Positions 7,775 through 32,258 of a stretch of 64,000 nt of DNA are shown one piece after another (position 1 is the stretch's first letter; every line of letters begins with the position of its first letter). The translations under genes and the position numbers were made by a program. Source of the DNA: a bacterium (GTDB lineage Bacteria; Hinthialibacterota; Hinthialibacteria; Hinthialibacterales; Hinthialibacteraceae); the NCBI GenBank assembly GCA_963662285.2, contig CAXXMV010000008.1, positions 1,024,001-1,088,000 on the forward strand, written 5' to 3'. Below the pieces are notes generated by a model. The model did not search any database, had not been told where the DNA came from, and saw only the letters and a list, made by a program, of their open reading frames with translations.

Positions 7775-7873
7775 CGAATAATTCTCCAATCAATTTTTTG
7801 AGTTTCTATCAAATTACCAATATTTATAATATATATAAAATTAAATACTTATTGATAAGACATTAGTGTATTG

Positions 7874-15200: not shown

Positions 15201-18200
15201 GCCTGGCTCGTTTGATGTAACCTCTGGCGTTGGAGTCGGTAATGGTTCCGGCGTTTTTGTTGGCGTTGGAGTAGGCCAGTCTTCAATAGTCGGAGTCTGA
15301 GTCGGCTTTGGCTGTGATTCATCAACAAGTCCACTGCCCTGCGCTATATAAGGAAGAGCATAATTAGAACCGTAAATAGTACCTTGATCAGGCGACAACG
15401 TTCGGGAAAAAGCAAGATGGAAATCATCTTCCGAATCACTATTGATTCGATAAAAGCCCTCGATAGTTAATCCGTTATTTGATACTTTGCATCGGGTATC
15501 AATTATAACGGTATCTGGATTGTAACCTTCCAGAAGATCGGGATTATTATCATCTTCCAGCAATTCCCAATAATACTTATTAACGCCTGACTCATAATTG
15601 TTATCGAGCGTCGCATTGAGCCTCAATGCGTTATGATAGGCTTTTCCGTTCATCAATCCACTGAACCAGGAGATGCGGAAACTGCTTGTAAAGAATCCCA
15701 ATTGACTGCTACTGCAACCTACTCCAAAACCATAGTAATACTGTTGTTGATTCATGTTTTTGAAATTTGAAAATCGGGCAGTCATTTCCCATTCTTTTGA
15801 ACCATTGGGTGTAGAACTTGTACTAAATAAATAAGCGGTGCCCAGTGTAACTGCATCATCTTCCGCTTGTGGAGTCCAGACGCGATATGCCCCATCAATC
15901 AGTCCAGCCCTGAGATCACGCTGTGGATTATAAAGCCAAGAGTAAACAGAATCTGATTCAGTACTCGGAGCGGAGCGAATAGATTCTGAGGGAAGAATAA
16001 CTTGTCCATTATCATTCATTTGCCCTGAAGAGAAATCATAATAGATGTCTCGTCCAACATTATCTTCATATTTGATCCAATCAACATCGCATATAAATGA
16101 ATCTTGAGGAATTTCAATCGAGAGCGTAGGTATTGGCGTTGGTTCTATCCCATCAGTCCTGGACACACGAAATCCATTGATGTTGCCCGTGTAGATAGGG
16201 CTGTCGCTGTTACGATACGCCGAACGACAGTCCCCGGCGTAGTTGCTCCAGATACCGCCACGAATAACCCTATAATTACCTGAGTTAGTAACTATGGGGT
16301 CGGTTATAGGCGTAGAAGGATAGTCACTATACCAATCCTGACACCACTCCCACACATTACCGCTCATGTCAAACAGGCCCCAAGGATTAGATAATTTCGT
16401 AGCTACTTCTTTGGCGCCATTGACGATGTTGTTACCGCTATACCAGGCGTAATCTTCGATTTGCGTATAGTTAGGATCATCTCCCCAATAAAAGCGTTCT
16501 GTCGTTCCCGCACGGCAGGCGTATTCCCACTCTGCCTCTGTGGGTAAACGAAACGTTCCCAGGCCCATCTGGTTCAGTTTAGTAATGAACTCCTGGCAAT
16601 CATTCCATGAGACATAATAAACCGGATAGTTTGGACCCACTCCATAATTTCTGGCAGGATTGTTTCCCATCACCGCTTCCCATTGGGCTTGAGTGATTTC
16701 ATACTTCCCAATGTAGAAATCATGCGTAAGAGTGACTTGATGCTGCGTCTCGTCAGAACCACGATTCCTCTCACTTGAAGGCGATCCCATCATAAACGTC
16801 CCCGCCGGGATCAAAACCATCTCCAGCGGTTTGGCGCCTTCGGGGAGGTTGGGGATGTTAACTGTGATACTTTCAATAACCAGCTTTGGTGTGGGCGTCG
16901 GTGGAACCGGAGTATTGGTGAAAGTCGGCGTAGTGGTATTGGTCGGCTTTGGTTCATTCTCATAAGTCCTGCACAAACGAAACCCACTTCCACTGTACGT
17001 GCTGACAGGGTTCTCGTAGTCGTTACGAACCGCCGAACGACAGTACCTAGCCATGTTGTACCAGCTGCCGCCCCGAAGAACCCTATAATTACCTGAGTTA
17101 GTAATAATGGGATCGATCTTAGGCGTGGAGGAATAGCCGCTATACGTATCTTGACACCACTCATATACGTTGCCGATCATGTCAAACAAACCCCAGGGAT
17201 TTGGCAATTTAGTAGCTACTTCTTTGGAGCCATTGACGCTGTTGTTACCGGTATACCAGGCGTAATCTTCGATTTGCGTATAGTTAGGATCATCTCCCCA
17301 ATAAAAGCGTTCTGTAGTTCCCGCACGGCAGGCGTATTCCCACTCTGCCTCTGTGGGTAGACGAAATGTTCCTTGGCTCATCTGGTTCAGTTTAGTAATG
17401 AACTTCTGACAATCGTTCCATAAGACTTGTTCAACTGGATTATTTGGCTTTCCACTAAAATATGAGGGATTGTTTCCCATCACCGCTTCCCATTGCGCTT
17501 GAGTCACTTCATATTTCCCAATGTAGAAATCCTGCGTAAGAGTGACTTGATGCTGCGTCTCGTCAGAATTACGATCCTGCTCACTTGAAGGCGATCCCAT
17601 CATAAACGTCCCTGCTGGTATCAACACCATCTCCAGCGGTTTGGCGCCTTCGGGGAGATTGGGGATGTCAACGGTGATGATTTCTATATCTATCGTAGGA
17701 GTGGGCGTCGGTGGAACCTGGGTGTTGGTAGGCATCGGCGTGGGGGTTTTGGTCGGAGTTGGCATTGGCGTATTAGTAGGTACAACAGGCGTTGGCGTTG
17801 GTTCTATCTCAGCAGTTCTGGAGATACGAAACCCAACGTAGTAGTACGTGTAGTCAGGGTAGACGTTGATACGATCCGCCGAACGACATTGCCAGGCGTC
17901 GTTGCACCAGCTGCCGCCGCGAAGAACCCTAAAGTTACCTGAGTTAGTGACAACAGGATCGATCTCAGGCGTGGAGGAATAGCCGCTATACGTATCCTGA
18001 CACCACTCATTCACGTTTCCGCTCATGTCAAACAAACCCCAGGGATTTGGCAATTTCGTACCAACCTCTTTGGTTCCAGATGGACTGTTGTTGCCGGAAT
18101 ACCAAGCGTAGTCATTGATCTGTGAATAATAGAGATCATCTCCCCAATAAAAGCGTTCTGTAGTTCCCGCACGGCAGGCGTACTCCCACTCTGCCTCTGT

Positions 18201-18596
18201 GGGAAGGTGGAACGTTCCCAGATCCATCTGGTTCAGTTTAGCAATGAATTCCAGGCAATCGTTCCATGGGACTTGTTCAACCGGATTGTTTGGTTTTCCA
18301 CTATAATATGAAGGATTGTTTCCCATCACCGCTTCCCATTGTGCTTGAGTCACTTCATATTTCCCCATATAAAAGGATTTGCTGATTGTTACCTGGTGCT
18401 GTGGGCCTTCATCGGAATATCGATCTTGTTCGCTATCCGGGCTTCCCATAGTAAAACTCCCCGCCGGGATCAAAACCATCTCCAGCGGTTTGGCGCCTTC
18501 GGGGAGGTTGGGGAGATCGATGGTGATGGTATCTTGAGCAATTGCTCCACAAATAAATTGGCAAAATATCAAAACGGTCAATAATATTGCTCGCAT
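12264..18596 (-). CDS. Giant secreted protein: 3 FGE-sulfatase/CLec-fold domains, unique domain, Ig-like domains, inactive clan-CD domain, 2 C-terminal IPGGF domains
   Basis: Three copies of LEMVLIPAGxFxMGS...LPTEAEWEYACRAG...GLFDMxGNVxEW...RGG...GFR separated by PT linkers. Start at ATG 18596 (MRAIL, GGAG RBS); the ORF track gives 18611. Confidence 0.9.
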   Translation of the reverse strand: MRAILLTVLIFCQFICGAIAQDTITIDLPNLPEGAKPLEMVLIPAGSFTMGSPDSEQDRYSDEGPQHQVTISKSFYMGKYEVTQAQWEAVMGNNPSYYSGKPNNPVEQVPWNDCLEFIAKLNQMDLGTFHLPTEAEWEYACRAGTTERFYWGDDLYYSQINDYAWYSGNNSPSGTKEVGTKLPNPWGLFDMSGNVNEWCQDTYSGYSSTPEIDPVVTNSGNFRVLRGGSWCNDAWQCRSADRINVYPDYTYYYVGFRISRTAEIEPTPTPVVPTNTPMPTPTKTPTPMPTNTQVPPTPTPTIDIEIITVDIPNLPEGAKPLEMVLIPAGTFMMGSPSSEQDRNSDETQHQVTLTQDFYIGKYEVTQAQWEAVMGNNPSYFSGKPNNPVEQVLWNDCQKFITKLNQMSQGTFRLPTEAEWEYACRAGTTERFYWGDDPNYTQIEDYAWYTGNNSVNGSKEVATKLPNPWGLFDMIGNVYEWCQDTYSGYSSTPKIDPIITNSGNYRVLRGGSWYNMARYCRSAVRNDYENPVSTYSGSGFRLCRTYENEPKPTNTTTPTFTNTPVPPTPTPKLVIESITVNIPNLPEGAKPLEMVLIPAGTFMMGSPSSERNRGSDETQHQVTLTHDFYIGKYEITQAQWEAVMGNNPARNYGVGPNYPVYYVSWNDCQEFITKLNQMGLGTFRLPTEAEWEYACRAGTTERFYWGDDPNYTQIEDYAWYSGNNIVNGAKEVATKLSNPWGLFDMSGNVWEWCQDWYSDYPSTPITDPIVTNSGNYRVIRGGIWSNYAGDCRSAYRNSDSPIYTGNINGFRVSRTDGIEPTPIPTLSIEIPQDSFICDVDWIKYEDNVGRDIYYDFSSGQMNDNGQVILPSESIRSAPSTESDSVYSWLYNPQRDLRAGLIDGAYRVWTPQAEDDAVTLGTAYLFSTSSTPNGSKEWEMTARFSNFKNMNQQQYYYGFGVGCSSSQLGFFTSSFRISWFSGLMNGKAYHNALRLNATLDNNYESGVNKYYWELLEDDNNPDLLEGYNPDTVIIDTRCKVSNNGLTIEGFYRINSDSEDDFHLAFSRTLSPDQGTIYGSNYALPYIAQGSGLVDESQPKPTQTPTIEDWPTPTPTKTPEPLPTPTPEVTSNEPGVHITTKEILRRCSGKSVSFQVIVEGLNGFNDKVRLQLKEIPSDFDARIFPNSVVPPSRATLILTPKSDAGIFDNADGYSVEELVIQALTPKSKSVEETAYINILPRGAMILKDPVPREPYQIDLRSTSKGEETVGQTVKIKGQIYNNPAIRYITVSALRPGEFAPEIHPNVEVSKRGGYFDTEFEIRHSDQLVLDSNDAPWKIEAFYKSGTRDNPFNAVSEPLYLRVGASNPIAGKRSSRQLNMIASTDGDQSKIFCGQVIIVGGAQGKTISTNAIYNLTSSLYENLIFERRFDIESVQYLAPVPVDPSIGQRASNQSLAAAISNASMADYLLLYLVGDGDNGFFDLSSNESLTGDSLRSLLDERLQDATKHTLLIIDTHQAGVIKENFTTQANLEVIASTGSSEDSIAIFSVSDEGQPFSFSDLFFDGLMRGKTIRDSLAYSRKHLRRIQEPNIQQIPVPLENDLSEPFASLVLGTAYTPENEPMADNLPPRIEEVPDSMKILRGGTLHLKVKIRDEEEEDKDSSGEDVILSVRITEFGTSISYEIPATYLPDSDELDIHVENFPIEPFGENASNGQYTLSMLVQDNTDNSTAPAITSIDVIAPMQTYEFGESGLAESGWAEIPGGFSGAIPGRISMQGFNNPSIIPSSQDQKGMAIQVEPGQVAFVYATTPIQTNGSPILLRAMMRSTSQNAAIWCVGLKGDLSKTEQVDGSLTLTNAMTASAFLAQEKRNILLYNPIGEEPVTPVIQVQGNGDSATTVWIDRVEIYEIDPTKSYPSELFTMIETQPNSQTAQTSFQPDAVYEFDGASQWLEIPGGFEGANPGSIDLVDFGNNYNILPSSLDRKGLAVSMDKDELALIFSALPISVENEPVLMRMKVQASSSNVSNWLIGLKGNVATGENVDGSKGYNYLSQSYDYSNSEKTIILLYEPDSGTLITPGIQTTNKSGNGQAILYIDRMEIYKLKSGLYYPGSLFNGE
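16167..16262 (-). repeat. DGR variable-region-like segment (third FGE domain of 12264..18596)
   Basis: ATC TGG AGC AAC TAC GCC GGG GAC TGT CGT TCG GCG TAT CGT AAC AGC GAC AGC CCT ATC TAC ACG GGC AAC ATC AAT GGA TTT CGT; the variable codons are NNC, NNT or NGG. Confidence 0.7.
16977..17075 (-). repeat. DGR variable-region-like segment (second FGE domain of 12264..18596)
   Basis: RGGSWYNMARYCRSAVRNDYENPVSTYSGSGFR; same fixed codons as its siblings, one codon longer, and more exceptions to the NNC pattern. Confidence 0.6.
17826..17921 (-). repeat. DGR variable-region-like segment (first FGE domain of 12264..18596)
   Basis: TGG TGC AAC GAC GCC TGG CAA TGT CGT TCG GCG GAT CGT ATC AAC GTC TAC CCT GAC TAC ACG TAC TAC TAC GTT GGG TTT CGT. 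Confidence 0.7.
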
Positions 18597-18636
18597 ATTT
18601 ATTCTCCACAATTAATTCAAAAATTATTTTCAATGT

Positions 18637-21600
18637 CTAATTTGAAAACAGTTCACCGGCAAATGCTTTGCCCGGTTCTAAGGAATAGATTTCCATCTTA
18701 TCAATATAAATAGAATTCTTCAGGGCGTTTATCGGGCTTGCGACTTGAATGGCTGGCGTCATCCATTCTCCTTCGTCGGGTTCGTATAACAAAATGATTG
18801 TTTTTTCCCGTCCAGCGCTGTTTGAGACGTTGGCCCATTGCCGGAATCCCAGCGAGCCATCTATCCCGGCGCCCGTTATGAGGTTCCCTTTTAAGCCAAC
18901 CAACCATAATGAAGCATCCGGCGTAACTGACTGAACTCTTACCTTAATCAGATAAGGATAGCCAGTGTATTGCAATGATTGCTCCGAGAAGGCGAAAGCA
19001 ACCTGCCCGGATTGCACGGTGAAAGCCAATCCCCGACGATCATCGCTGGAAAAAAGCAGGTTGTCTTCATAGGGAAAATCAACTGGCGTAATAGAACCTT
19101 CCGGCGCTCCGGTAAAATCGCTCTGCGCTTTGCGCCAATTCATGTCCTGAAGAGTCTTTTGGGAGAAATCGTATTTGATGAAAGGTTCAGGATCGTTAAT
19201 CATCAACTGGCTTTCCGCTACATTCATGTATGAAGAGAATAATTCGGAGGGATAAGAAAGATTGTCATCAATTTCGTATAGCTCCACCCGATCAATAAGA
19301 ACAGTGGTCACTCCATCCATATCCAATCCGGCTACCTGAATTAAAGGCGTAATGGATTCGTTTTCAACGGGGTGATATAAAGCAATTAATTTTCGCTCCC
19401 CGCTGGATAGCACGGAAGAATGTGAATTAGTGATTAAAGACTGAGATTCGTCTACATCAATCAATGTATTAAAATCTCCTTTCAATGCTGTCAGCCATAC
19501 AGCCGCATGTGGAGAGTTGGAGCGCATGGTCGCTCGAATCAAAACAGTTTTCCCTTTGGTCGGGAAAGATTGCATTGCATGAACAAGAACCACCTGATTT
19601 CGTTTAACGCTTATCGCCAGACCTTTCTTATCATGGCTGGATGGAATGAGAGAATCATCAGTTTTAAAATCAATACAATAGGCGGCGCCGGGCTGCGCTC
19701 CTCCAAATCCTCCATTGATAATATTCCATCCGGAATCATTAGGATTATCCTGCTCGAATTCATCCTTCCTAGCAGGTCCAACCACTTCTATAGAAGTAAT
19801 CGCCGGCGCCGTTGAATTACCGGTATTGTCCTGAACCAACATGTTTAATGTATACTGCCCATTTGAGGCATTAGGTCCGAAAAGTTTTTCGGGGAAATTT
19901 TCTTCTAAGATTTCAAATTCGTCATCTTTAATAAACCGGGCGCTTACATCATGGTTTATCGATGTTCCATGCTGAGTAATGCGAACGTTGAGAAGAACGT
20001 CTTCGCCATTACTGACATCTTCATCATCACGTTCTTCATCACGTATTCGTGCTTTTAATTTCAAGGTTTCACCGCGGACAATTTGAATGGTCGACGGGAT
20101 ATCGATAATGCGCGGGGGAAGATTGTCTTCCAAGGGCTTGCCCTGGGGGACATAGGCGGAGCCAAGCACTAGTGAAGCAAAAGGCTCTTTGAGTTCGCCT
20201 TCTAACGGAACGGGAATCTGAAATATGTTAGGTTCTTGAATACGGCGCAAATGAATACGGGCGTATTTAAGGGATTCTTTAACATTTTCCCCTCTTAAAA
20301 GTGCATCAAAAAAGAGATCCGAAAAAGAAAACGGTTGCCCCTCATCGGTTCTGCCAAAAATTGCTTTACTGTCTTGGGTGGAACCGGTACTCGCAATCAT
20401 TTCAAAGTTGAGTTCATCAGGCATGCTTTCACGCATTATACCCGCTTGAGGAGCATCAAGAATTACGAGCGTATATTTACTTTTATCCTGGATTCGTGAA
20501 CGCAACAAATTCTTAAGTATTCCACCATTAATAAAATCAGCTTTTGAAGCAAATTGAAAGAAACCTCCATCTTCAGATCCAACAAGATATAGAATTAAAT
20601 AGTTAGCATCTTGTGAATCTGAAATTGCTTGCTCTAAAGCTTCATATGATGATATTACACCAACGGAAGGATCAACATCACTAGTAGGCGCCAGATAATG
20701 AATCGATTCTTCATCAAAACGCCTTTCATCAATTAAATTGTGATAGAGAGGAGTTGTAAGCATCTCAATAGATTTCGTATTAACTTCCAATCCACCAACT
20801 CCGCCAACAATGATAACATGACCCGAAAAAATATGGGATCCATCGCCCGTAGAAGTAACAACATTCAAATATCGATTCCGCTGTTTTGCTGATAGAGCAG
20901 GATTTTCCGAGCCGACTTTTAAGTACAACGGATTACTCGCCGCGCGAAAAGGATTATCCCAAGTTGTCCCTTTGTAAAAAGCTTCAATCTTCCAGGGTGT
21001 ATCGTTGTTATTGAGCACTAAATGACTATCTTTTTCAACAAGAAATTCCGTAACGAAATTGCCTCCACGCTTAGAAATTTCTACTTCATCATCGATAATG
21101 GGAACAGATTCTCCCGGTCGTAATGCAGAAACAGTCAACCAACGAATTCCGGGATTATCGTGAATCTCTCCTCGGATAACGACTTTATCTCCAATCCTTT
21201 CCCTATTTCTGGATTCTGTTCGTAAATCGATAAAAAACGGTTCACGCGGAACGGGAGAATTATAAAGAGGCGCCCCATAAGGCAATAGATGTAAATAAGC
21301 AATTATTTCTTCAACTTTATCGCTGCCTGATAGAGCTTGAATTAGAAAGGAATCAACGAGAGGGATATCTCCGCTAATTCCATTAAAAATAGTCTTGTCT
21401 CGTGGAGAGATAATTAAGGTAGATTGATTATTTGGAACAAACTTTTGATGCGAAAACTGTGCATCAAAACCATCGGGCAAATCCCTAACCTGGAGACGAA
21501 CCTCTTCGTTAAATCCATTAAATCCCTCAACGATGACCTGAAAAGTGACGGTTCCTCCATTCGTCCGCTGAAGAATTTCTCTAGTCGTTATTCTTATTCC

Positions 21601-24600: not shown

Positions 24601-25803
24601 AGAGATTGATGTTTGGATGCCTATATTGTTGTTCTGAATAATATTATTAATTAATTCACCACTTGATGTGGTAATATTAATGCCAATTTTCCCATTGTAA
24701 CTAATTATACTGCCATTGGAACTCAGGGCATTTGATATTCCATTATTTGTATTATAAGTAATCTCACTACTGGTTAATTCGGCAATAAAAGCGGAAGCAA
24801 TTCCATTCCACTTGTTTCCACTAATAATACTATTTTCGATAATCGCTGATGAGTTTGATCCATAATAGGAACCAATCCCGTCAGCGTCATTATCAAGTAT
24901 TCTGGAATTATTTTTTACAATAACATATCCGCCGCCATACTCAGAGCAATCGCATATTCCATGCCCGGGAAAGGCGCCTCCATTAATCGTGTTGCTTATT
25001 ACACAATTATCCACTGTTATTTTTGTTGCATAAATTCCATACCACCCATTGCCCGCTATCTGACAATTTCTGGCATTGACAGTACTCCTCCATCCATTTA
25101 TTCCTGCTCTACCATCCGTGGAATTATTAAGAATTTGACAATTCTCGATAGTCAAGACGCCTTCCCATAGATAAATGCCATCTTTCGTATTTTTTTCAAT
25201 CAGGCTATCTTTGATATCCAGATTAAGGCTCTTTTCTAATTGAATTCCAGTTTGGTTATTGGAAATAATAAGATCAGACAAGGTAGAATTAACCTTCAAA
25301 TGCAATCCAAACTCTTTATTTTCATTTATAGTCAGATTGCTGAATGAAGGATTCCCGCTATTAACAGTTATACCATTAATACCATAATAAATCTGACAAT
25401 TTTTCAAGGAAATATTTTCACCGTAAAAAATCAATCCATACCAATCCCCTTTTACCGGTGACGTGGAAGAAGAAGTAAATACAATTGGCGAGGTTTCCGT
25501 ACCTTGCGCTATCAGCGATCCATTATCGACGATTATTTCTATGCGCGAGGTATGTACACCGCCGATTTGAGCATCTACATTCGCATCGCATTCTATTCGC
25601 GTTCCCGGAAGAATAGTCAATTCGCCCGAACTGGTGACAGTCACATCACCCTTCAATTGCACAACGCCCGACCAGGTTTCCTCACCGGAAATTTCACCAT
25701 AGGTTGTAAGTGAATATGAAGTTTGAGAAAAGGAAAAGGAAAAATAACACATTAGAAGAAAAATATATTTATTACGAGTGTAATAGATATTGATATACTT
25801 CAT
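18637..25803 (-). CDS. Giant secreted protein: right-handed beta-helix, PT linkers, two VTD[DH] repeat domains, CBM-like domain, divergent FGE domain, Ig-like domains, inactive clan-CD domain, 2 C-terminal domains
   Basis: Asn/Gly/Ile-rich parallel beta-helix repeats ending in ANVNYWG; NLIPNPSF start typical of CBM4/9-like domains; FRLPTEAEWEYACRA; C-terminal ~990 aa homologous to the neighbouring giants. Confidence 0.88.
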   Translation of the reverse strand: MKYINIYYTRNKYIFLLMCYFSFSFSQTSYSLTTYGEISGEETWSGVVQLKGDVTVTSSGELTILPGTRIECDANVDAQIGGVHTSRIEIIVDNGSLIAQGTETSPIVFTSSSTSPVKGDWYGLIFYGENISLKNCQIYYGINGITVNSGNPSFSNLTINENKEFGLHLKVNSTLSDLIISNNQTGIQLEKSLNLDIKDSLIEKNTKDGIYLWEGVLTIENCQILNNSTDGRAGINGWRSTVNARNCQIAGNGWYGIYATKITVDNCVISNTINGGAFPGHGICDCSEYGGGYVIVKNNSRILDNDADGIGSYYGSNSSAIIENSIISGNKWNGIASAFIAELTSSEITYNTNNGISNALSSNGSIISYNGKIGINITTSSGELINNIIQNNNIGIQTSISTDTYSWIYFNDVFDNHSYELKNNGAAAIIANVNYWGEPTTTELNQEISNLTKIYDSRDDSSVGQVILNGWKNTSTNPTPTPTNTPYPPTATFTNTPNPTNTYTPVPTHKPPTPTFTYTETPVPTNTPTVITTPTPWRPYISIEVPPKMIYVTDDGQSTENLMDKTDYDAPSDRALMIHWNIGGFLSQPKAIQLNVAGTGTGQVRLAANLDPLTTSFEWREGNPLIFDESVKGGPQFNKSYRFTVIVNLTIGSTSSFSSGVIDFSDIPTPTPTFTNTPIPTPTYTPTLTPTNTIPPVPLNIPVDTVVVTDHLQSTEKLNGGYDIDVAHDRALAVRWNYSKSDAANFHIYVKIDNGFPQFLGQTKSGSVYYFEWRIGNPFLTDSFVDGPQYKKLYKFLVYAITSDGAYLLTSLDPVLFWDANEILPTPTYTTTPKPTDTPRPTPTDAPKPTPTNTPKPTPTNTPKPTPTDTPKPTPTDTPNPPTATSTPFIAVNLIPNPSFNIASGSLPMGWENPGSGGNLIWDRIIAHSFSSSVKIAGSSVQNYSLHWSTIDLIEFDRSKQYLLTFWYLWDKPALSGDVAEIGIRAYNDEGDDIGLTTYYPNGLAGDWRYAQFIIPKNSMPESAKYVKLYFGRFMGSTESVDSILWYDDVSLRIMGDHESLPPTLTPYPPTPTNTFTHTPTSTNSPTPTNTLTPTDTPRPTNTPTHTPIPSPTPIMLIDVPLNLYEGSKPLELVYIPSGTFLMGSPSYEKGRDPNEGPQHEVTISRPFYMSKYEITQEQWFAVMNVKPSVYGGSNYPVDAVSWEDCNHFIEELNKLNIGNFRLPTEAEWEYACRADSTERFYWGEDESNTEINNYAWNWFNSRHSPQTVGGKSPNDWGLYDMSGNQNEWCADWYTEYNSSSVIDPQGPNEGENRVVRGGFFDSIGGCRSAARDSANPKIGIETISFRIVRDFTFKPTPIDMPTPIDTPPPDIPTPDMPTPTPEEPDDPIFEPTPDETSKEPGIRITTREILQRTNGGTVTFQVIVEGFNGFNEEVRLQVRDLPDGFDAQFSHQKFVPNNQSTLIISPRDKTIFNGISGDIPLVDSFLIQALSGSDKVEEIIAYLHLLPYGAPLYNSPVPREPFFIDLRTESRNRERIGDKVVIRGEIHDNPGIRWLTVSALRPGESVPIIDDEVEISKRGGNFVTEFLVEKDSHLVLNNNDTPWKIEAFYKGTTWDNPFRAASNPLYLKVGSENPALSAKQRNRYLNVVTSTGDGSHIFSGHVIIVGGVGGLEVNTKSIEMLTTPLYHNLIDERRFDEESIHYLAPTSDVDPSVGVISSYEALEQAISDSQDANYLILYLVGSEDGGFFQFASKADFINGGILKNLLRSRIQDKSKYTLVILDAPQAGIMRESMPDELNFEMIASTGSTQDSKAIFGRTDEGQPFSFSDLFFDALLRGENVKESLKYARIHLRRIQEPNIFQIPVPLEGELKEPFASLVLGSAYVPQGKPLEDNLPPRIIDIPSTIQIVRGETLKLKARIRDEERDDEDVSNGEDVLLNVRITQHGTSINHDVSARFIKDDEFEILEENFPEKLFGPNASNGQYTLNMLVQDNTGNSTAPAITSIEVVGPARKDEFEQDNPNDSGWNIINGGFGGAQPGAAYCIDFKTDDSLIPSSHDKKGLAISVKRNQVVLVHAMQSFPTKGKTVLIRATMRSNSPHAAVWLTALKGDFNTLIDVDESQSLITNSHSSVLSSGERKLIALYHPVENESITPLIQVAGLDMDGVTTVLIDRVELYEIDDNLSYPSELFSSYMNVAESQLMINDPEPFIKYDFSQKTLQDMNWRKAQSDFTGAPEGSITPVDFPYEDNLLFSSDDRRGLAFTVQSGQVAFAFSEQSLQYTGYPYLIKVRVQSVTPDASLWLVGLKGNLITGAGIDGSLGFRQWANVSNSAGREKTIILLYEPDEGEWMTPAIQVASPINALKNSIYIDKMEIYSLEPGKAFAGELFSN
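23165..23310 (-). repeat. Coding tandem repeat, 24 bp x about 6 (PT[DN]TPKPT)
   Basis: PTDTPRPTPTDAPKPTPTNTPKPTPTNTPKPTPTDTPKPTPTDTPNP. Confidence 0.8.
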
Positions 25804-25828
25804 TTTTTGGCTCCCAATTCATAGATGA

Positions 25829-28800
25829 TTATTTCTTCGACATAAAAATAGTTCCAGGATATGCTTGCCCAGGTTCTAAGGAATATATTTGTAAACTATC
25901 GATTCGTATAATATTTTGAGATGCTTCTGATTTACTGGCAACCTGTAGAGCGGGGGTCATCCAGGAACTGGAATCCGGTTCATATAAAAGAAACATGGTT
26001 TGTTCTTTTCCCGTACAATTCGCGACGTTAGCCCATTGCCGGAATCCCAGCGATCCATCAACACCCTCGTTTAAATTGAGGTTTCCTTTGAGTCCCACTA
26101 ACCATAGTGAAGCATCCGGCGCGTCTGACTGTACTTGCATTTTAAATAGATAGGGATAGCCCGTATAAGGGAGAGATTCCTTTGAATAAGTAAAAGCAAC
26201 CTGCCCGGATTGCACAGAGAATGCCAGCCCCCTGCGATCATTGCTTGAAGGCAGCAGGTTAGCGTCATGACTGAAATCACTCGCGAAAACCATGCCTGGA
26301 GATTCTTCAGTAAATCCTCCTGGAATTTCCTGCCATTTCATCGCTTGAAGATTCGGTTTAGAAAATTCATACTCAACAATCGGATTAAGATCGTTTACAA
26401 CTTGTGTAGAACCTGAATCTCCCGGAAGAGTCGAGAATAACTCTGAGGGATATACGCTATCTTGATCGATTTGATAAGCCTCAATCCGGTCAATCAGAAC
26501 TGTAGTAACGCCTTCTGCATCCAACCCAGCAACTTGAACAACTGGAGTTACTAATTCCTCTCCTACGGGATGATATAGGACGACTAGATTTTGTTCCATA
26601 GTGGATATCACAGATGAGTTTGACGATGTTATTAGAGATTGAGAGTTATCCACATTCACCCCGGAACTCAAGTTCCCTTTTAAGGCCGTCAACCATACGC
26701 CGGCATTAGGGGAATTGGCGCGCATAGAGGCGCGAATGAGCAAAGGCTTCCCTTCTGTCGCTATCGGTTCCAAAGCAAAGAACATGGTGATCTGTTTTTT
26801 CTGGATGGTGACAGCCAGCGCTTTTTTATCTTCACTGGAAGGAACCAAGGAAGGATCGAAACTAAAATCAAGGAATGATACTGTTCCGGGAGCATTACCT
26901 GAGAAGCCGCCCGGGATTTCCGCCCAACCATTAGCGCCGATATCATTTTGATCAAACTCGTAAGTTTTGATTGGATCGGGTTTCAAAACTGGATCAGCAG
27001 ACGATGGAACGACATCGATTGAAGTTATCGCCGGAGCGGTTGAATTATCAGAGTTATCCTGTACCAGTAGACTTAATGAATATTGCCCGTTCGGCGCATA
27101 ATCTCCAAACAATGAATTTGGGAAATTATCAATATTAAGATGAAACTTATCAGTACTGCTATCATAAGTAATATATTCTAATTCAGATATCTCTTTACTG
27201 ACATTAGTTTCAAGTTGAGAAATGCGAACAGATAGAACCACATCTTCGCCGCTGCTGTCTTTATCATGAGTCTCTTCATCTCGAATAGCGGCTTCCAGGA
27301 CAAGTGGTTCTCCACGAACATGCTCAATAGATGCAGGAACGCCTTCTATAGCTGGAGGAAGGTTGTCGTTTATACTTTCATCTTCTTCAACAAAGGCGGA
27401 ACCGATAATCAACGAAGCGAATTCTTCCTTCAAATCTGATTCCAACGGTTCCGGGACTTGCGCAATGTTCGGTTCCTGAATGCGCCTTAATTGATTCCGG
27501 GCATAAGCCAGAGATTTATAAACTGTTTTGCCTGATAAAATTGCATCGAAAAATAAATCTGAGAACGAGAAGGGTTGCCCCTGGCTGTCAGAGAAAATCG
27601 CAGGATGCTGATCTCCCGTGCTGGCGATTATTTCCAGTCCCTTGTGGGTAGGCAATCGATCACGAAGGAATCCCGCCTGTTGTATATCGATAATGACCAG
27701 CGTACGCTTATTGGCGTCTCTACAGCGAGGAGATAGAATTTCGGCTAATGTTGGACCATTAAGCGGCGTACCTGAAGCGAAATAGAACACGCCTCTTTCT
27801 CCCGAACCGATTAAATACAGGAGGAGAAACTCCGCTTCAGACGCCTGGTCAACTGCATCGATTAATCCTTGCTCGCTGGATTCAACATCCAACTGTGGAT
27901 TAGAACTATGAGACAGGAGAGTAACCGAGTCATCAGTCAGGCGTCTTTCGGAAACCAGGCTTTTGTAAATCGAGCCAGTCAGTTTTTCTATTTGACCTGC
28001 ACTGATGTCATCCCCGTCTTTGCCGCCCACAATAATTACATGTCCTGTATAATTTTCCAGACTTTGAGATTGCACCACCGAACGGTATTTCACTTTTCCA
28101 GGGAGATTAGCCCTGATAGAACCTACGGGAATGAACAATGGTTCGCTCTGTCCTCTCAGAGGAAGATAGTTTAATCCGATATCAAAGGAGGCGTCGATCC
28201 GCCACTGGACGTCATCAGGATCATTTATCAATTGATCAGAGTTTTCCACCAGAAATTCCGCTTCAAAATATCCACCACGATCAGAGACAGTTACTTTCTC
28301 AGTCACAGGATTGCTATCTCCCGGTCGGAGAGCACGGACGAATACATCAGATATCCCCGTATAGCTGCGAATCTGGCCTTTTACTACTACCGTTGACCCA
28401 GCAGTTTCATCCAGTTTGGATGGAGAAGCCAGATAGATGGGAATCGGTTCTCGATAGACGACATCGCCGTCAAGCGTCGTGTAACCGCGGGTAAGAATTT
28501 CGATTGACGCTTCCTCGGAATCACTCTTTGAGGGAGAACTGCCTTTGATAGAGAATTTTTCCACCAATCCTCTTGATGTAATGGAATCGAAAATATTATT
28601 GTCACTATTGGGCGTAAGGATCAACCGGGATACCGCGGGAGGAACCACTGGGTTCGGAACAAATCTCACGTCGAAACCATTTGGAGCATTAGGCGTGTAT
28701 AAATCCACTTTCTCATTAAATCCATTAACACCCTCAACATTGACGGTAAAAACAACGCTTTTGCCATTGCAACGGCGTAATAATTCAAGAGTTGTTATTT

Positions 28801-30745
28801 CCAATCCAGGTTCATTGGATATCTCCGTTGGCGTTGGAGTAGGCAATACAGGCGTTGGCGTCGGTAATGGTTCCGCTGGCGTAGGAGTTAATGTTGGCGT
28901 GGGAGTATCAGTCGGAGTTGATATAGGTGTATCAGTGGGTAAAACAGGCGTTGGCGTAGGTAGAATCCCATCAGTCCTACATATACGAAAACCACTGCCG
29001 TAGTACCCGAAGTCGGGATCGCTCCCGTAACGGCTCGCGGAACGACAGTACCTGGCATCGTAGCTCCAGCAGCCGCCCCGAAGAACCCTATAAATACCTG
29101 AGTTAGTAACAACGGGATCGATTACAGGAGTAGAAGGATAGTCACTATACCAATCCTGACACCACTCCCACACATTACCACTCATGTCAAACAAACCCCA
29201 GCGATTTGGCAATTTCGTAGCTACTTCTTTGGTTATATAGCCACTATTACCGTCATACCAAGCGTAGTCATTGATCTGTGAATCATTGGGATCATCTCCC
29301 CAATAAAAGCGTTCTGTCGTTCCTGCACGGCAGGCGTACTCCCACTCCGCTTCTGTGGGTAAACGAAATGTTCCTTGGCCCATCTGGTTCAGTTTAGTAA
29401 TGAACTCCTGGCAATCGTTCCATGATACTTGTTCAACTGGATTGTTTGGCATTTCACTAAAATAAGAGGGATTGTTTCCCATCACCGCTTCCCATTGGGC
29501 TTGAGTCACTTCATACTTCCCAATGTAGAAATCCTGTGTAAGAGTGACTTGATGCTGCGTCTCGTCAGAACCACGATCTTTATCACTTGACGGCGATCCC
29601 ATCATAAAGGTTCCTGCAGTGATGAACACCATCTCCAGCGGTTTGGCGCCTTCGGGGAGATCGGGAATATCGACTGTGATAGTTTCTATCTCCAGCGTCG
29701 GCGTGGGGGTTTTTGTCGGAGTTGGCATTGGCGTATTAGTAGGTGCAACAGGCTTTGTCTCATCATAAGTCCTGCACAAACGAAAACCCCTGCTGACGTT
29801 CATGTAGTAGGGGCCAAGTGCGTCACGGAACGCAGAACGGCAGTACCAGCTTTCGCTGCCCCAGCTGCCGCCCCGGTACACCCTGGTACTACCTGAATTT
29901 TCACCTTTTGGATCAACTATTGATCCCCGGTTGCTTGGTTCTTCCCACCAATCATTACACCATTCCCACACGTTGCCATGCATATCATATAGGTTCCAGG
30001 GATTGGGCTGTTTCAAGCCCACTTCTTTCGCGCCTGCTTCATTGCCGCTATAGGTATTATTTCCCTTCCACCACATATATTGATCGCCAATTTCTCTATA
30101 TGAATCTCCAAAATCAGGTATTTCCAAAGCGTTACCAAATGAAAAACGGGTTCGGGTTCCCGCCCGGCAAGCGTATTCCCACTCCGCTTCGGTTGGCAAC
30201 CGATACCCATTGGCGGTCCAATCAGTAGTCCAGTCCGATTCGTTATAAACCGGCGTTAATCCCTGTTGCTTACTAAGTTCGTTACAGAAACTCGCTGCAT
30301 TAATCCAAGTTACTTGTTCAACCGGATTGTCCGGTTTGTTTTGGAAACCGGATGGATTGTCGTCCATAACCGCTTGATATTGCGCCTGAGTAACTTCATA
30401 TCGCCCGATATAGAAATATTTTGTAAGAGTAACTTGATGAGGCGCCCACTCTAAATATTCATCTCTCCCCCGCTCATCCGCTGGCGATCCCATAGTAAAT
30501 GTCCCCGCCGGGATTAAAACCATTTCCAGCGGTTTGGCGTCTTCGGGGAGATTGGGGATATTGGGGATATCGACGATATCAGTATCTATTGTTTTTATAA
30601 TGAATGGTTTGAAATAGGCGGTGTGAGATGTAGCAGTATCTATTGTATTTATAGTGAATGGTTTATAATTGGCTGTATGAGTTGATGGATACACGCTTAG
30701 TGCGATTGTAAAAAACAGGAAAGTGGAAATAAAACAATGGCGCAT
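25829..30745 (-). CDS. Giant secreted protein: 2 FGE-sulfatase/CLec-fold domains, Ig-like domains, inactive clan-CD domain, 2 C-terminal IPGGF domains
   Basis: Two FGE motif sets and the shared C-terminal block. Start at ATG 30745 (MRHCF) with AGGAG RBS and a signal peptide; the ORF track gives 30799. Confidence 0.9.
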   Translation of the reverse strand: MRHCFISTFLFFTIALSVYPSTHTANYKPFTINTIDTATSHTAYFKPFIIKTIDTDIVDIPNIPNLPEDAKPLEMVLIPAGTFTMGSPADERGRDEYLEWAPHQVTLTKYFYIGRYEVTQAQYQAVMDDNPSGFQNKPDNPVEQVTWINAASFCNELSKQQGLTPVYNESDWTTDWTANGYRLPTEAEWEYACRAGTRTRFSFGNALEIPDFGDSYREIGDQYMWWKGNNTYSGNEAGAKEVGLKQPNPWNLYDMHGNVWEWCNDWWEEPSNRGSIVDPKGENSGSTRVYRGGSWGSESWYCRSAFRDALGPYYMNVSRGFRLCRTYDETKPVAPTNTPMPTPTKTPTPTLEIETITVDIPDLPEGAKPLEMVFITAGTFMMGSPSSDKDRGSDETQHQVTLTQDFYIGKYEVTQAQWEAVMGNNPSYFSEMPNNPVEQVSWNDCQEFITKLNQMGQGTFRLPTEAEWEYACRAGTTERFYWGDDPNDSQINDYAWYDGNSGYITKEVATKLPNRWGLFDMSGNVWEWCQDWYSDYPSTPVIDPVVTNSGIYRVLRGGCWSYDARYCRSASRYGSDPDFGYYGSGFRICRTDGILPTPTPVLPTDTPISTPTDTPTPTLTPTPAEPLPTPTPVLPTPTPTEISNEPGLEITTLELLRRCNGKSVVFTVNVEGVNGFNEKVDLYTPNAPNGFDVRFVPNPVVPPAVSRLILTPNSDNNIFDSITSRGLVEKFSIKGSSPSKSDSEEASIEILTRGYTTLDGDVVYREPIPIYLASPSKLDETAGSTVVVKGQIRSYTGISDVFVRALRPGDSNPVTEKVTVSDRGGYFEAEFLVENSDQLINDPDDVQWRIDASFDIGLNYLPLRGQSEPLFIPVGSIRANLPGKVKYRSVVQSQSLENYTGHVIIVGGKDGDDISAGQIEKLTGSIYKSLVSERRLTDDSVTLLSHSSNPQLDVESSEQGLIDAVDQASEAEFLLLYLIGSGERGVFYFASGTPLNGPTLAEILSPRCRDANKRTLVIIDIQQAGFLRDRLPTHKGLEIIASTGDQHPAIFSDSQGQPFSFSDLFFDAILSGKTVYKSLAYARNQLRRIQEPNIAQVPEPLESDLKEEFASLIIGSAFVEEDESINDNLPPAIEGVPASIEHVRGEPLVLEAAIRDEETHDKDSSGEDVVLSVRISQLETNVSKEISELEYITYDSSTDKFHLNIDNFPNSLFGDYAPNGQYSLSLLVQDNSDNSTAPAITSIDVVPSSADPVLKPDPIKTYEFDQNDIGANGWAEIPGGFSGNAPGTVSFLDFSFDPSLVPSSEDKKALAVTIQKKQITMFFALEPIATEGKPLLIRASMRANSPNAGVWLTALKGNLSSGVNVDNSQSLITSSNSSVISTMEQNLVVLYHPVGEELVTPVVQVAGLDAEGVTTVLIDRIEAYQIDQDSVYPSELFSTLPGDSGSTQVVNDLNPIVEYEFSKPNLQAMKWQEIPGGFTEESPGMVFASDFSHDANLLPSSNDRRGLAFSVQSGQVAFTYSKESLPYTGYPYLFKMQVQSDAPDASLWLVGLKGNLNLNEGVDGSLGFRQWANVANCTGKEQTMFLLYEPDSSSWMTPALQVASKSEASQNIIRIDSLQIYSLEPGQAYPGTIFMSKK
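28985..29080 (-). repeat. DGR variable-region-like segment (second FGE domain of 25829..30745)
   Basis: TGC TGG AGC TAC GAT GCC AGG TAC TGT CGT TCC GCG AGC CGT TAC GGG AGC GAT CCC GAC TTC GGG TAC TAC GGC AGT GGT TTT CGT; derivable by A-only changes from WNNNARNCRSANRNRNNPDNRNNNNGFR. Confidence 0.7.
29780..29875 (-). repeat. DGR variable-region-like segment (first FGE domain of 25829..30745)
   Basis: RGGSWGSESWYCRSAFRDALGPYYMNVSRGFR; many NNC codons at the variable sites, but more diverged than its siblings. Confidence 0.5.
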
Positions 30746-30790
30746 GATAGCGGTTCTCCTTGAAAATAATTTTCCTATAATCGTTACAAA

Positions 30791-30812
30791 AAAAATCACG
30801 GCAGTGACTTTT
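30791..30812. other. Hairpin 45 nt downstream of the C-terminal variable region; candidate DGR homing stem-loop or weak terminator
   Basis: AAAAATCAC-GGCA-GTGACTTTT on the plus strand: 9-bp stem with one mismatch and a 4-nt loop; followed by a T run on the coding strand. Confidence 0.45.
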
Positions 30813-30856
30813 GACGCAGTAAAATGGAAAAAGGCAAAGGATAAAAGCTAACAGGT

Positions 30857-31954
30857 CTACTGAGTTCTGGATAGACGAAATCCAAAGTAGTAGCTCGCGT
30901 AGTCAGGTCCGTTGCCGCCGCGATCCGCCGAACGGCAGCTATCGGCGCTGTAGTTCCATACACCGCCGCGAAGCACTCTATAGTTACCAGAGTTAGTAAC
31001 AACGGGATCGATCTCAGGCGTGGAGGAATAGCCGCTATACGTATCCTGACACCATTCATACACGTTGCCGATCATATCAAACAAGTTCCAGGGATTTGGC
31101 AATTTCGTACCTACTTCTTTGGCGCCATTGACGATGTTGTTACCGCCATACCAAGCGTAATCTTCGATTTGCGTATAGTTAGGATCATCTCCCCAATAAA
31201 AGCGTTCTGTCGTTCCTGCACGGCAGGCGTATTCCCACTCCGCCTCTGTGGGTAGACGAAACGTTCCTAGATCCATCTGGTTCAGTTTAGAAATGAATTC
31301 CAGGCAATCATTCCATGAGACTTGTTCAACCGGATTGTTTGGATTACCAATGAAATATGAGGGATTGTTTCCCATAACCGCTTCCCATTGGGCTTGAGTC
31401 ACTTCATATTTCCCCATATAAAAGGATTTGCTGATTGTTACCTGGTGCTGTGGGCCTTCATCGGAACCTCGATCTTGTTCGCTATCCGGGCTTCCCATAG
31501 TAAAACTCCCCGCCGGGATCAATACCATCTCCAGCGGTTTGGCGCCTTGGGGAAGGTTTGGTAAAGGAATCGTAAAGTCTTCTATAAAATGGTCATCCGC
31601 AGTTACCGCAACGCCAAACAGAGTATTGAATACGCCTGGCATATCCTTCCCTGCATCCCAAATAACATGCTTGTTTTCTCCTGGAACCACTAAACCAACA
31701 TCGCCCGACAAACTTTCAGGGATTATGTTATATGTCGCTCCATTGTTATCCGAGAACCTTATGGAAATCATCAATTGTGAACTGTCCGGATCATCAACAT
31801 CATAATAGACATCCAGCAACTTTGATCCATCCGTCCGCTGTTCCGCACGAACGTTGCTGACAAACGGCGGTTCAGCGGCAAAAGCGCAGAATGACACAAA
31901 AAGGAAACCTATCAATAAACTAGTTCTCAAATACATCAAGCGTGATCCGGCCAT
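30857..31954 (-). CDS. Secreted single FGE-sulfatase/CLec-fold protein with an N-terminal Ig-like domain; canonical DGR-target layout
   Basis: Start at ATG 31954 (GGAG 7 nt upstream) gives signal peptide MAGSRLMYLRTSLLIGFLFVSFCAFA; the FGE domain ends GFRLSRTQ at the stop. The ORF track gives 32107. Confidence 0.88.
   Translation of the reverse strand: MAGSRLMYLRTSLLIGFLFVSFCAFAAEPPFVSNVRAEQRTDGSKLLDVYYDVDDPDSSQLMISIRFSDNNGATYNIIPESLSGDVGLVVPGENKHVIWDAGKDMPGVFNTLFGVAVTADDHFIEDFTIPLPNLPQGAKPLEMVLIPAGSFTMGSPDSEQDRGSDEGPQHQVTISKSFYMGKYEVTQAQWEAVMGNNPSYFIGNPNNPVEQVSWNDCLEFISKLNQMDLGTFRLPTEAEWEYACRAGTTERFYWGDDPNYTQIEDYAWYGGNNIVNGAKEVGTKLPNPWNLFDMIGNVYEWCQDTYSGYSSTPEIDPVVTNSGNYRVLRGGVWNYSADSCRSADRGGNGPDYASYYFGFRLSRTQ
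30875..30970 (-). repeat. DGR variable-region-like segment at the gene 3' end
   Basis: TGG AAC TAC AGC GCC GAT AGC TGC CGT TCG GCG GAT CGC GGC GGC AAC GGA CCT GAC TAC GCG AGC TAC TAC TTT GGA TTT CGT, then five codons to the stop. Confidence 0.7.
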
Positions 31955-32048
31955 AGTCATGCTCCAAATGTGAATTAAATATATCCAACCTCTAAAAGTA
32001 TGCCTCTGATTGGAATTACCAGTCACATATTTTATCAAAATATATAAC

Positions 32049-32071
32049 ATGTTGAGAAGGCTTCTCAACAT
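32049..32071. promoter_or_regulatory. Perfect inverted repeat upstream of the giant-protein cluster, candidate operator
   Basis: ATGTTGAGAAG-G-CTTCTCAACAT, 11-bp arms with a 1-nt centre, about 95 bp upstream of the ATG at 31954. Confidence 0.4.
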
Positions 32072-32258
32072 TAATGGCAGGAAATCGAGAATCATTTCAT
32101 TACTCAAACATATGCATCTTGTAAATCATGCATTTGGCTTGCGGCGTCAATGTTTTTGTAAGGTTTTTAACATGGATGCCACACTATGGGGAGATATTTC
32201 TTATGCGGTATTAATAGAGTTTTTCTGAATACCTATGTTAATCAATTATTGATTATAA

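What the first reader, a model, noticed from the sequence alone, without database searches (positions are those of the whole stretch)
16167..30970. Array of six DGR-like variable regions, five inside giant multidomain proteins, with no RT or template in the window
Seen: six FGE/CLec domains have conserved scaffolds (five are nearly identical) but differ heavily in a 96-99 nt segment from RGG to GFR (16167-16262, 16977-17075, 17826-17921, 28985-29080, 29780-29875, 30875-30970). The W, C-R-S-A, R, P and G-F-R positions stay fixed. Variable codons are mostly NNC (TAC, AGC, GAC, GGC, ATC, GTC, TGC), NNT or NGG despite the AT-rich surroundings. From the W codon to GFR, the 16167 copy is fully explained, and the 17826 copy explained bar one base, by A-to-N changes from a single hypothetical template: TGG AAC AAC AAC GCC AGG AAC TGT CGT TCG GCG AAT CGT AAC AAC AAC AAC CCT AAC AAC ACG AAC AAC AAC AAT GGA TTT CGT. 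Known: DGRs mutate template adenines specifically, and CLec/FGE-type folds are common targets, usually with the variable region at the gene 3' end. Inference: these are remote targets, or frozen products, of a DGR elsewhere in the genome. Unusually, up to three diversified binding sites sit in one 2100-aa polypeptide, which would give a multivalent, multi-specificity surface protein. The 28985 copy fits a slightly different template, so more than one template may be involved.
Basis: partly seen in the sequence, partly recalled or inferred. Interest (0 to 1): 0.92.

Follow-up and report, generated by a model that had tools for sequence, protein, structure and literature searches.

The report
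Relic DGR variable regions in giant proteins
Six lectin-like binding modules in a cluster of giant secreted proteins carry the codon footprint of a mutagenic retroelement, but the retroelement found elsewhere in the genome no longer matches them, so they look like frozen leftovers of a known diversification system.

Summary
Six FGE-sulfatase/C-type-lectin domains sit on the minus strand: three in a 2115-aa protein, two in a 1656-aa protein, one ending a 416-aa protein. They diverge mainly in a 96-99 nt segment, at codon positions 1 and 2. Third positions stay C: TAC:TAT is 22:1 there against 52:213 in the rest of the four genes. A seventh FGE domain in the 2388-aa neighbour lacks this pattern and serves as an internal control.

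The genome does hold a DGR, on another contig (C1): target gene, Avd, RT and template TR1. Its own VR differs from TR1 at 24 of 34 adenines and 0 of 62 other bases. An orphan second template (TR2) is also present.

Neither template fits the window VRs, which carry 6-15 non-adenine mismatches of 62 to TR1. I found no third template, template-associated hairpin, RT or Avd in the assembly, and no matching template in relatives or in one genome per species. Assembled contigs of the likely source sample show no variation at the five VRs they cover.

Best reading: relic targets written by at least two related templates and now frozen. Targets with three tandem VR-bearing lectin domains are already published, so novelty is modest.

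The parts
12264..18611 (-). P0001, 2115-aa secreted giant protein. It has three N-terminal FGE/CLec domains, PT-rich linkers and a ~1000-aa C-terminal chassis with a weak C13-peptidase-like region.
17814..18488 (-). FGE/CLec domain 1 of P0001. VR-like segment at 17826-17921 (internal).
16965..17639 (-). FGE/CLec domain 2 of P0001. VR-like segment at 16977-17075 (internal, one extra codon). Its 5' 24 nt and its 3' end TTTCGTTTGTGCAG are identical to TR1.
16155..16829 (-). FGE/CLec domain 3 of P0001. VR-like segment at 16167-16262 (internal). Its best PDB match is the Treponema DGR variable protein TvpA.
18637..25803 (-). P0004, 2388-aa paralogue (beta-helix, one FGE domain at 21751-22416, same chassis). 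This FGE domain has no NNC footprint and serves as the internal negative control.
25829..30799 (-). P0002, 1656-aa paralogue with two N-terminal FGE/CLec domains and the same chassis.
29768..30532 (-). FGE/CLec domain 1 of P0002 (divergent scaffold). VR-like segment at 29780-29875 (internal). Against TR1 it has 21/34 A and 7/62 non-A mismatches, and it shares TR1's 3' end over 21 nt.
28973..29641 (-). FGE/CLec domain 2 of P0002. VR-like segment at 28985-29080 (internal). Against TR1 it has 21/34 A and 6/62 non-A mismatches, the closest of the six.
30857..32107 (-). P0003, 416-aa protein with a single C-terminal FGE/CLec domain (30863-31537). VR-like segment at 30875-30970, four codons before the stop.

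Best explanation
The six segments are genuine DGR-type variable regions. They sit at the ligand-binding end of TvpA-like FGE/C-type-lectin modules at the N-termini of a cluster of giant secreted proteins. In the past they were rewritten by mutagenic retrohoming from AAC-rich templates, which left NNC codons.

At least two related templates were involved. One was TR1-like and served the two VRs of P0002. Another, closest in codon layout to the template of a family relative, served the three VRs of P0001 and the one of P0003. At least one rewriting happened after the domains had duplicated.

Today the only DGR machinery in the assembly (RT, Avd and TR1, plus an orphan TR2, all on contig C1) serves one perfect VR next to it. 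It does not match the window VRs. These are therefore relics: fixed, drifting binding-site variants that give the proteins a hard-wired set of different lectin specificities, not a renewable one.

Shown: the footprint, the DGR elsewhere, the mismatch to every template found, and the absence of other template units in the assembly.
Inferred: past rewriting, the number of templates, secretion, and binding function.
For: 1. DGR footprint independent of any template. Third codon positions in the variable codons are C in 73 of 108. TAC:TAT is 22:1 against 52:213 elsewhere in the same genes. Positions 1/2 are more diverged than position 3 in the VR only. The P0004 domain lacks the pattern.

2. Fold and family. 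Pfam FGE-sulfatase. The best solved relative is Treponema denticola variable protein 1, 2y3c, E 1.5e-26, with the VR aligned to its C-terminal end.

3. DGR in the genome. Avd scores 126 bits against an NCBIfam cut-off of 80. The RT is 377 aa. TR1 against its own VR gives 24/34 A and 0/62 non-A mismatches.

4. Mismatch to the templates. Window VRs against TR1 show 6, 7, 11, 11, 13 and 15 non-A mismatches of 62. A genome-wide regex finds only the cognate VR with 0 non-A substitutions, next best w28985 with 6, and nothing within 6 for TR2.

5. No further template unit.
- Only 2 of 35 FGE-like segments are AAY-rich.
- Only 2 copies of the conserved hairpin downstream of the template exist.
- There is 1 Avd.
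- There are 2 RTs, and the other is a group II intron with a GIIM domain.

6. Staggered ages. Over the 10 pairs of similar domains, pooled position-3 identity is 0.745 in the VRs against 0.709 in the scaffolds. The pair w16167/w17826 has 27/29 against 117/188 (Fisher 0.0006).

7. Two template lineages. Backbone-site distances put w28985 and w29780 at 6-7 from TR1. The other four are 5-15 from each other and 9-13 from TR1. The template of relative G011 has the ACG and AAT codons that those four imply.

8. Contigs of two runs cover five of the six VRs with 0 differences. This is weak evidence, because the runs are one sample and probably the source of the assembly.
Against: - The assembly is estimated 92.5% complete, so a third template could be unassembled.
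- The read evidence comes from contigs at depth about 6-12 from one sample, probably the source. Contigs drop minor variants, 37 listed differences were not shown, and no listed piece covered VR 17826-17921.
- w28985 and w29780 reach 78% and 75% of mismatches at template adenines against TR1. That meets the 75% threshold used for secondary targets in Roux et al. (PMC8144416, passage read).
- w29780 and w16977 keep TR1's 3' end and the VR-type junction GGACT, so they might still accept cDNA.
- The pair w16167/w17826 differs at only 5 of 60 backbone sites, so their last rewriting need not be ancient.
- No same-genus genome was available for comparison.
Confidence: 0.68

Rival explanations
1. The VRs are still active remote targets. 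A third template matching them exists but is missing from the assembly, either in the unassembled part or on a mobile element. The C1 RT/Avd uses it in trans, as it may use the orphan TR2.
For: - Completeness is 92.5%.
- The genome already holds a template without its own RT. TR2 carries the conserved downstream hairpin. Trans use of templates is published (PMC10907252, passages read).
- w16167 and w17826 agree at 27/29 third positions.
- 0 and 1 bases of these two are left unexplained by a common backbone.
Against: - No third AAY-rich segment, hairpin, RT or Avd was found in 7.29 Mb in 8 large contigs.
- The 3' ends after TTTCGT differ among the six VRs, whereas co-targeted VRs normally share the template's 3' end.
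- The other VRs differ from each other at 7-18 of 60 backbone sites.
- Contigs show no VR variation.
- No such template was found in 25 genomes of the order or in one genome per species.
Confidence: 0.13
2. TR1 itself still rewrites some of the window VRs, rarely or partially, chiefly the two in P0002. The non-adenine mismatches would then be drift between rare events, or the result of partial 3'-biased conversion.
For: - w28985 and w29780 have 78% and 75% of mismatches at TR1 adenines.
- w29780 shares 21 nt of TR1's 3' end plus the VR-type junction.
Against: - The 6-7 non-A mismatches lie in both halves of the segment (4/2 and 3/4).
- The cognate VR has none, so this RT is strictly adenine-specific here.
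- Another former target, C8:271, shares the cognate VR's downstream flank yet has 12 non-A mismatches. Decay of old targets is therefore common in this genome.
Confidence: 0.08
3. No retroelement was ever involved. The segments are ordinary fast-evolving binding loops of duplicated lectin domains under positive selection for Tyr/Ser/Asp/Gly/Asn-rich surfaces.
For: - The amino-acid composition resembles that of binding sites in general.
- No matching template exists.
- Overall, third positions in the VRs are about as diverged as those in the scaffolds (0.745 against 0.709).
Against: - Selection on amino acids does not explain synonymous codon choice: TAC:TAT is 22:1 against 52:213, and AAC:AAT is 11:1 against 130:283.
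- The constant and variable positions coincide with those of real templates in this genome and in a relative.
- The P0004 domain in the same cluster has no such bias.
Confidence: 0.04

Closest known systems
Treponema denticola TvpA (DGR variable protein with FGE-type C-type lectin fold, PDB 2y3c)
   Same: It is the best solved sequence relative of the window domain (E 1.5e-26). The VR aligns to the same C-terminal stretch of the fold. That DGR is also reported to have remote targets (PMC5758913, passage read).
   Different: TvpA is a small protein with one terminal VR and a matching template. Here five of six VRs are internal, in N-terminal modules of 1656-2115-aa proteins, and no template matches them.
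[quoted passage not shown] 2024, PMC10907252, passages read)
   Same: - One polypeptide carries three tandem CLec domains, each with a VR.
- The RT and template are encoded elsewhere in the genome.
- The same genome holds degenerate DGR loci and transposon-linked remodelling. Here an IS transposase lies beside TR2.
   Different: - Their VRs match a template at all non-adenine sites and vary in natural populations. Here they do not match, and no variation was seen.
- Their targets belong to putative conflict systems (vWA/MoxR/STAND). Here the modules head secreted giant proteins with no PADLOC match.
CLec1 target gene with three VRs, two internal (Wu et al. 2018, PMC5758913, passage read; the gene is named only in Supplementary Table S1, which I could not see)
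   Same: Multiple VRs, including internal ones, lie in one CLec-type target.
   Different: All three are reported to appear subject to mutagenesis from a cognate template. Domain context could not be compared without the supplement.
The cognate DGR of this genome (C1: FGE target, Avd, RT, TR1)
   Same: - The FGE domain is about 60% identical in protein.
- The VR layout is the same.
- TR1's 5' 24 nt is identical in w16977, and its 3' end is identical in w16977 and w29780.
   Different: The cognate VR is terminal and has 0/62 non-A mismatches. The window VRs have 6-15/62.

Membership tests
DGR target variable region (CLec/FGE type) | VR lies in the C-terminal part of a C-type-lectin/FGE-sulfatase fold with conserved scaffold residues | tested here: met
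   Pfam PF03781 on all six domains. Best PDB relative is TvpA 2y3c. W, CRSA, R, P and GFR are invariant.
DGR target variable region (CLec/FGE type) | A template repeat in the genome that differs from the VR only (or almost only) at template adenines | tested here: not met
   There are 6-15 of 62 non-A mismatches to TR1 and 11-18 of 66 to TR2. The cognate VR has 0 of 62. No third template is in the assembly.
DGR target variable region (CLec/FGE type) | Adenine bias of mismatches to the nearest template (75% or more at A, the threshold quoted from PMC8144416) | tested here: inconclusive
   The figures are 78% and 75% for w28985 and w29780, and 57-63% for the other four. All six are enriched at A against non-A (Fisher 1e-7 to 8e-3).
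DGR target variable region (CLec/FGE type) | DGR reverse transcriptase and accessory protein (Avd) in the same genome | tested here: met
   The RT is 377 aa with RVT_1. Avd matches NF033474 at 126 bits (cut-off 80) and PF22296. Both lie on contig C1, not in the window. The IGxxxSQ motif in the RT (IGNLTSQ) as a DGR mark is recalled, not tested.
DGR target variable region (CLec/FGE type) | 3' end of the VR identical to the 3' end of the template (IMH region) | tested here: inconclusive
   w29780 shares 21 nt and w16977 shares 14 nt with TR1's 3' end, plus the VR-type GGACT junction. The other four differ straight after TTTCGT. No clear downstream hairpin is seen even at the cognate VR.
DGR target variable region (CLec/FGE type) | Population-level hypervariability confined to template-adenine positions | tested here: inconclusive
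   Only assembled contigs of two runs of one sample were available. Five of six VRs are covered with 0 differences at depth about 6-12.
Catalytic formylglycine-generating enzyme | Active-site residues and sulfatase-maturing activity | not tested
   Only the fold family (PF03781) was scored. The tandem, secreted, VR-bearing context argues for a binding role, by inference.

The most novel reading that the evidence does not exclude
The internal, N-terminal tandem VRs are still being rewritten in trans by the single RT/Avd on another contig, using a third template that is not in the assembly. One retroelement would then keep six binding sites in three secreted giant proteins variable, alongside its own cognate target.
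Probability: 0.13. Interest if true: 0.6.

Novelty: new member of a known kind. Interest (0 to 1): 0.33.

Why it matters
The locus is a clean natural example of what happens to DGR targets once their template is gone. The AAC-to-NNC codon footprint outlives the template, so former targets can be recognised from codon usage alone.

It also shows DGR-written lectin modules being duplicated and shuffled onto a common giant-protein chassis, which yields a fixed multi-specificity repertoire.

For annotation, the practical lesson is that NNC-rich FGE/CLec ends should be called DGR targets only when a template matches at non-adenine sites.

The biology itself (tandem VR-bearing CLec domains, trans-acting and degenerate DGR loci) is already described, so the finding extends known ground.

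Tried and rejected
Searches for a third template all came back empty:
- Relaxed blastn of the six VRs and of both template regions against the whole genome found only TR1, TR2, the cognate VR and other FGE ends.
- An AAC/AAT-rich window scan at 8 or more of 30 codons was too permissive. It gave 456 hits and the output was cut. I replaced it with a scan of all 35 FGE-like segments.
- A 24-nt backbone pattern with up to 2 mismatches, run on 26 genomes of the order, hit only the window's own VR.
- The same pattern run exactly against genome contigs gave 0 hits.
- A looser IUPAC form gave 9 hits. Eight are templates of unrelated organisms, with 12-19 non-A mismatches to w16167 and w17826.

Read-level variation: only Logan contigs of two runs of one sample were on offer. 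The listed differences lie in 12374-14850 and fit a paralogue or a second strain. Many joints reflect the repeated domains. I could draw no conclusion on minor variants.

Downstream hairpin at the VRs: nothing convincing, not even at the cognate VR.

Strain comparison: the metagenome scan with P0003 gave 573 relatives. The best 80 kept are at most 68% identical, so no close strain was found. Four of those 80 loci (L019 and L021 identical, L020, L085) show an internal plus a terminal VR-like segment in one frame.

The PADLOC scan of the giant proteins gave no family for the three FGE-bearing ones.

The relative G011 has one perfect remote VR, which is terminal and not tandem.

I considered the second RT on C8 as a DGR RT and rejected it. 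It has a GIIM maturase domain and is a group II intron.

Wu et al.'s Supplementary Table S1, which names the three-VR target, could not be consulted.
Full report
**What is there**

The window is G000:C8:1024001-1088000. Four adjacent minus-strand genes encode large proteins:
- P0001, 12264-18611, 2115 aa
- P0004, 18637-25803, 2388 aa
- P0002, 25829-30799, 1656 aa
- P0003, 30857-32107, 416 aa

. Each begins with a hydrophobic, signal-peptide-like N-terminus. That reading comes from the sequence and is an inference.

Pfam finds FGE-sulfatase domains in all four: three in P0001, two in P0002, one in P0003 and one in P0004. Five are internal, in N-terminal modules followed by PT-rich linkers. One ends four codons before the stop of P0003.

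**Is the pattern real?**

Yes.
- The five similar scaffolds are 77-89% identical in DNA, not nearly identical. The VR segments are 51-73% identical.
- In the scaffolds, pairwise identity is 0.81-0.94 at codon positions 1/2 and 0.62-0.80 at position 3, the usual picture under purifying selection. In the VR it is inverted: 0.48-0.72 at positions 1/2 and 0.62-0.93 at position 3.
- The 108 variable codons end in C 73 times, T 15, G 15 and A 5. In the rest of the four genes T-ending codons dominate. NNC:NNT is 73:15 against 1230:2286 (Fisher 8e-20), TAC:TAT is 22:1 against 52:213, and AAC:AAT is 11:1 against 130:283.
- Synonymous codon choice cannot be explained by selection on amino acids. It is what AAC-to-NNC rewriting leaves behind.
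- The seventh FGE domain (P0004, 21751-22416) has none of this and serves as an internal control.
- The closest solved structure by sequence is the Treponema DGR variable protein TvpA (2y3c, E 1.5e-26). The VR aligns to its C-terminal end.

**Is there a DGR?**

Yes, but not in the window. The genome has two RVT_1 matches.
- The one on C8 (about 204 kb from the window) carries a GIIM maturase domain and is a group II intron.
- The one on C1 is a 377-aa RT. It is preceded by a 115-aa Avd (NCBIfam DGR Avd, 126 bits, cut-off 80) and by an FGE-domain target gene. It is followed by, and partly overlaps, an AAC-rich template, TR1.
- Over the 96-nt RGG-to-GFR stretch, the adjacent VR differs from TR1 at 24 of 34 adenines and 0 of 62 other bases. 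This is a textbook DGR.
- A second AAC-rich template, TR2 (C1:279247-279897 region), lies in an FGE pseudogene with one TGA, near an IS transposase.
- TR1, TR2 and the templates of four relatives are followed by a conserved hairpin. In 8 of its 23 predicted pairs both sides change and the pair is kept. At TR1 there is a sub-threshold Rfam match to RT-14 RNA (39.3 bits against 48.1).
- The genome holds exactly two copies of this hairpin, one Avd and two AAY-rich FGE ends among 35 FGE-like segments.

**Do the templates fit the window VRs?**

No.
- Against TR1 the six VRs have 15-21 of 34 adenine mismatches but also 6 (w28985), 7 (w29780), 11 (w16167), 11 (w17826), 13 (w16977) and 15 (w30875) of 62 non-adenine mismatches. 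TR2 and the template of relative G011 fit worse or no better.
- A genome-wide search with every template A set to N finds only the cognate VR at 0 non-A substitutions. The next best is w28985 at 6, and nothing lies within 6 for TR2.
- The adenine excess is significant for all six (Fisher 1e-7 to 8e-3), so they descend from templates of this family. Only the two VRs of P0002 reach 75-78% of mismatches at adenines.
- At 60 sites that are non-A in all three real templates, P0002's VRs are 6-7 from TR1. The three VRs of P0001 and that of P0003 are 5-15 from each other and 9-13 from TR1.
- The backbone those four share (TGT CGT TCG GCG, CCT, ACG, AAT) resembles in codon layout the real template of G011, a family relative whose RT is 63% identical.
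- So at least two template lineages wrote this array. The second is not in the assembly. It was also not found in 25 genomes of the order or in one genome per species.

**How old?**

- Pooled over the ten pairs of similar domains, third-position identity in the VRs (0.745) is about that of the scaffolds (0.709). Most VRs have therefore drifted about as long as the duplicated domains.
- One pair, w16167/w17826, agrees at 27 of 29 third positions against 117 of 188 in their scaffolds (Fisher 0.0006). These two internal VRs were rewritten from a common template after the domains had duplicated. Internal VRs were thus real DGR targets at some time.
- The 3' ends after TTTCGT differ among the six, unlike co-targeted VRs. 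However, w29780 and w16977 keep TR1's 3' end and the VR-type junction.
- Other FGE genes in the genome look like further decayed targets. One example is C8:271, which shares the cognate VR's downstream flank yet has 12 non-A mismatches.

**Population evidence**

Two runs of one sample hold the stretch, but only as assembled contigs, at depth about 6-12. This sample is probably the source of the assembly. Contigs span five of the six VRs with no difference, and breaks fall in the repeated scaffolds, not at the VRs. This agrees with frozen VRs but cannot exclude minor variants.

**Context**

- The ~1000-aa C-terminal chassis is shared by P0001, P0002, P0004 and a fourth paralogue just upstream of the window (C8:1017935-1023796). 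That paralogue is 92% identical over 979 aa and has a different N-terminus without an FGE domain.
- The full chassis was found only in this genome. Its last two ~180-aa repeats occur in many proteins of all 19 family relatives searched.
- A weak C13-peptidase-like stretch is present. By my recalled reading of the legumain motifs the catalytic His and Cys are replaced. This was not tested.
- The picture is one of domain shuffling: different binding heads on one secreted chassis.

**Comparison with the literature**

- Wu et al. 2018 (PMC5758913, passages read) state that most VRs are C-terminal. They also report internal ones, a CLec1 target with three VRs and remote targets more than 100 kb away.
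- Dore et al. 2024 (PMC10907252, passages read) describe targets with three tandem VR-bearing CLec domains, diversification in trans, unequal activity of VRs within a target, and degenerate loci lacking machinery.
- Roux et al. 2021 (PMC8144416, passages read) use 75% or more of mismatches at A for secondary targets.
- The architecture and the trans arrangement are therefore known. What this locus adds is an orphaned, partly decayed array at the N-termini of very large secreted proteins.
- My two literature searches were narrow. I make no claim that relic arrays of this kind are unpublished.

**Verdict**

- Novelty: new member of a known kind.
- Interest is modest.

Noticed in passing
G000:C1:279054-279897 (L003 about 7050-7900, minus strand): An orphan second DGR template (TR2, 12 AAY codons) sits inside an FGE pseudogene with one TGA. 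The same conserved hairpin follows it as follows TR1. It has no RT or Avd nearby, no VR within 6 non-A mismatches, and an IS-type transposase about 2.4 kb away.
   Followed up: partly
L002:1000-1170 (minus), with equivalents in L003, L007, L008, L011, L012: A conserved structured element lies downstream of the template repeats of six DGRs. The hairpin shows compensatory changes in 8 of 23 pairs. At TR1 there is a sub-threshold match to Rfam RT-14 RNA (39.3 bits against 48.1). Only two copies exist in this genome.
   Followed up: partly
G000:C8:1017935-1023796 (+), just upstream of the window: A fourth paralogue of the giant-protein chassis (P0006, 1954 aa) is 92% identical to P0001 over the last 979 aa. 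Its N-terminus is unrelated and has no FGE domain. This points to recent duplication or gene conversion of the chassis with head swapping.
   Followed up: partly
window 12264-13400 and matches listed: The last two ~180-aa repeats of the giant proteins form a domain found at or near the ends of many large proteins in all 19 family relatives searched. It has no Pfam match. It may be a lineage-specific sorting, anchoring or carbohydrate-binding module.
   Followed up: no
G000:C3:413493-414406 and many dispersed sites: A ~106-nt repeat lies downstream of TR1. It occurs as five tandem copies on C3 and as dozens of partial, often inverted copies across all contigs. It looks REP- or MITE-like.
   Followed up: no
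window 7874-12184 (-): A 1436-aa protein made largely of WD40 beta-propeller repeats lies directly downstream of the giant-protein cluster. It has a weak PADLOC match to HEAT-ARM_XIII (E 1.6e-15).
   Followed up: no
window 13900-14300 (P0001 residues about 1463-1570, with the equivalent regions in P0002 and P0004): There is a weak Peptidase_C13 / GPI-transamidase-like region (Pfam E 0.0011, PDB 7w72_K E 0.0019). By my recalled reading of the legumain motifs the catalytic His and Cys positions look substituted, so it is probably a pseudo-protease fold.
   Followed up: no
G000:C8:1292124-1293044 (L004 3798-5060, minus): A group II intron RT/maturase (420 aa, RVT_1 plus GIIM). It is the only other reverse transcriptase in the genome.
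   Followed up: yes
G000: C1:443985, C6:788120, C8:271107, C4:98520, C2:466189, C2:1590973, C1:134916: Further FGE-domain ends, mostly terminal, have raised third-position C (0.50-0.62) and no matching template. They are probably more decayed DGR targets. C8:271 shares the cognate VR's downstream flank.
   Followed up: partly
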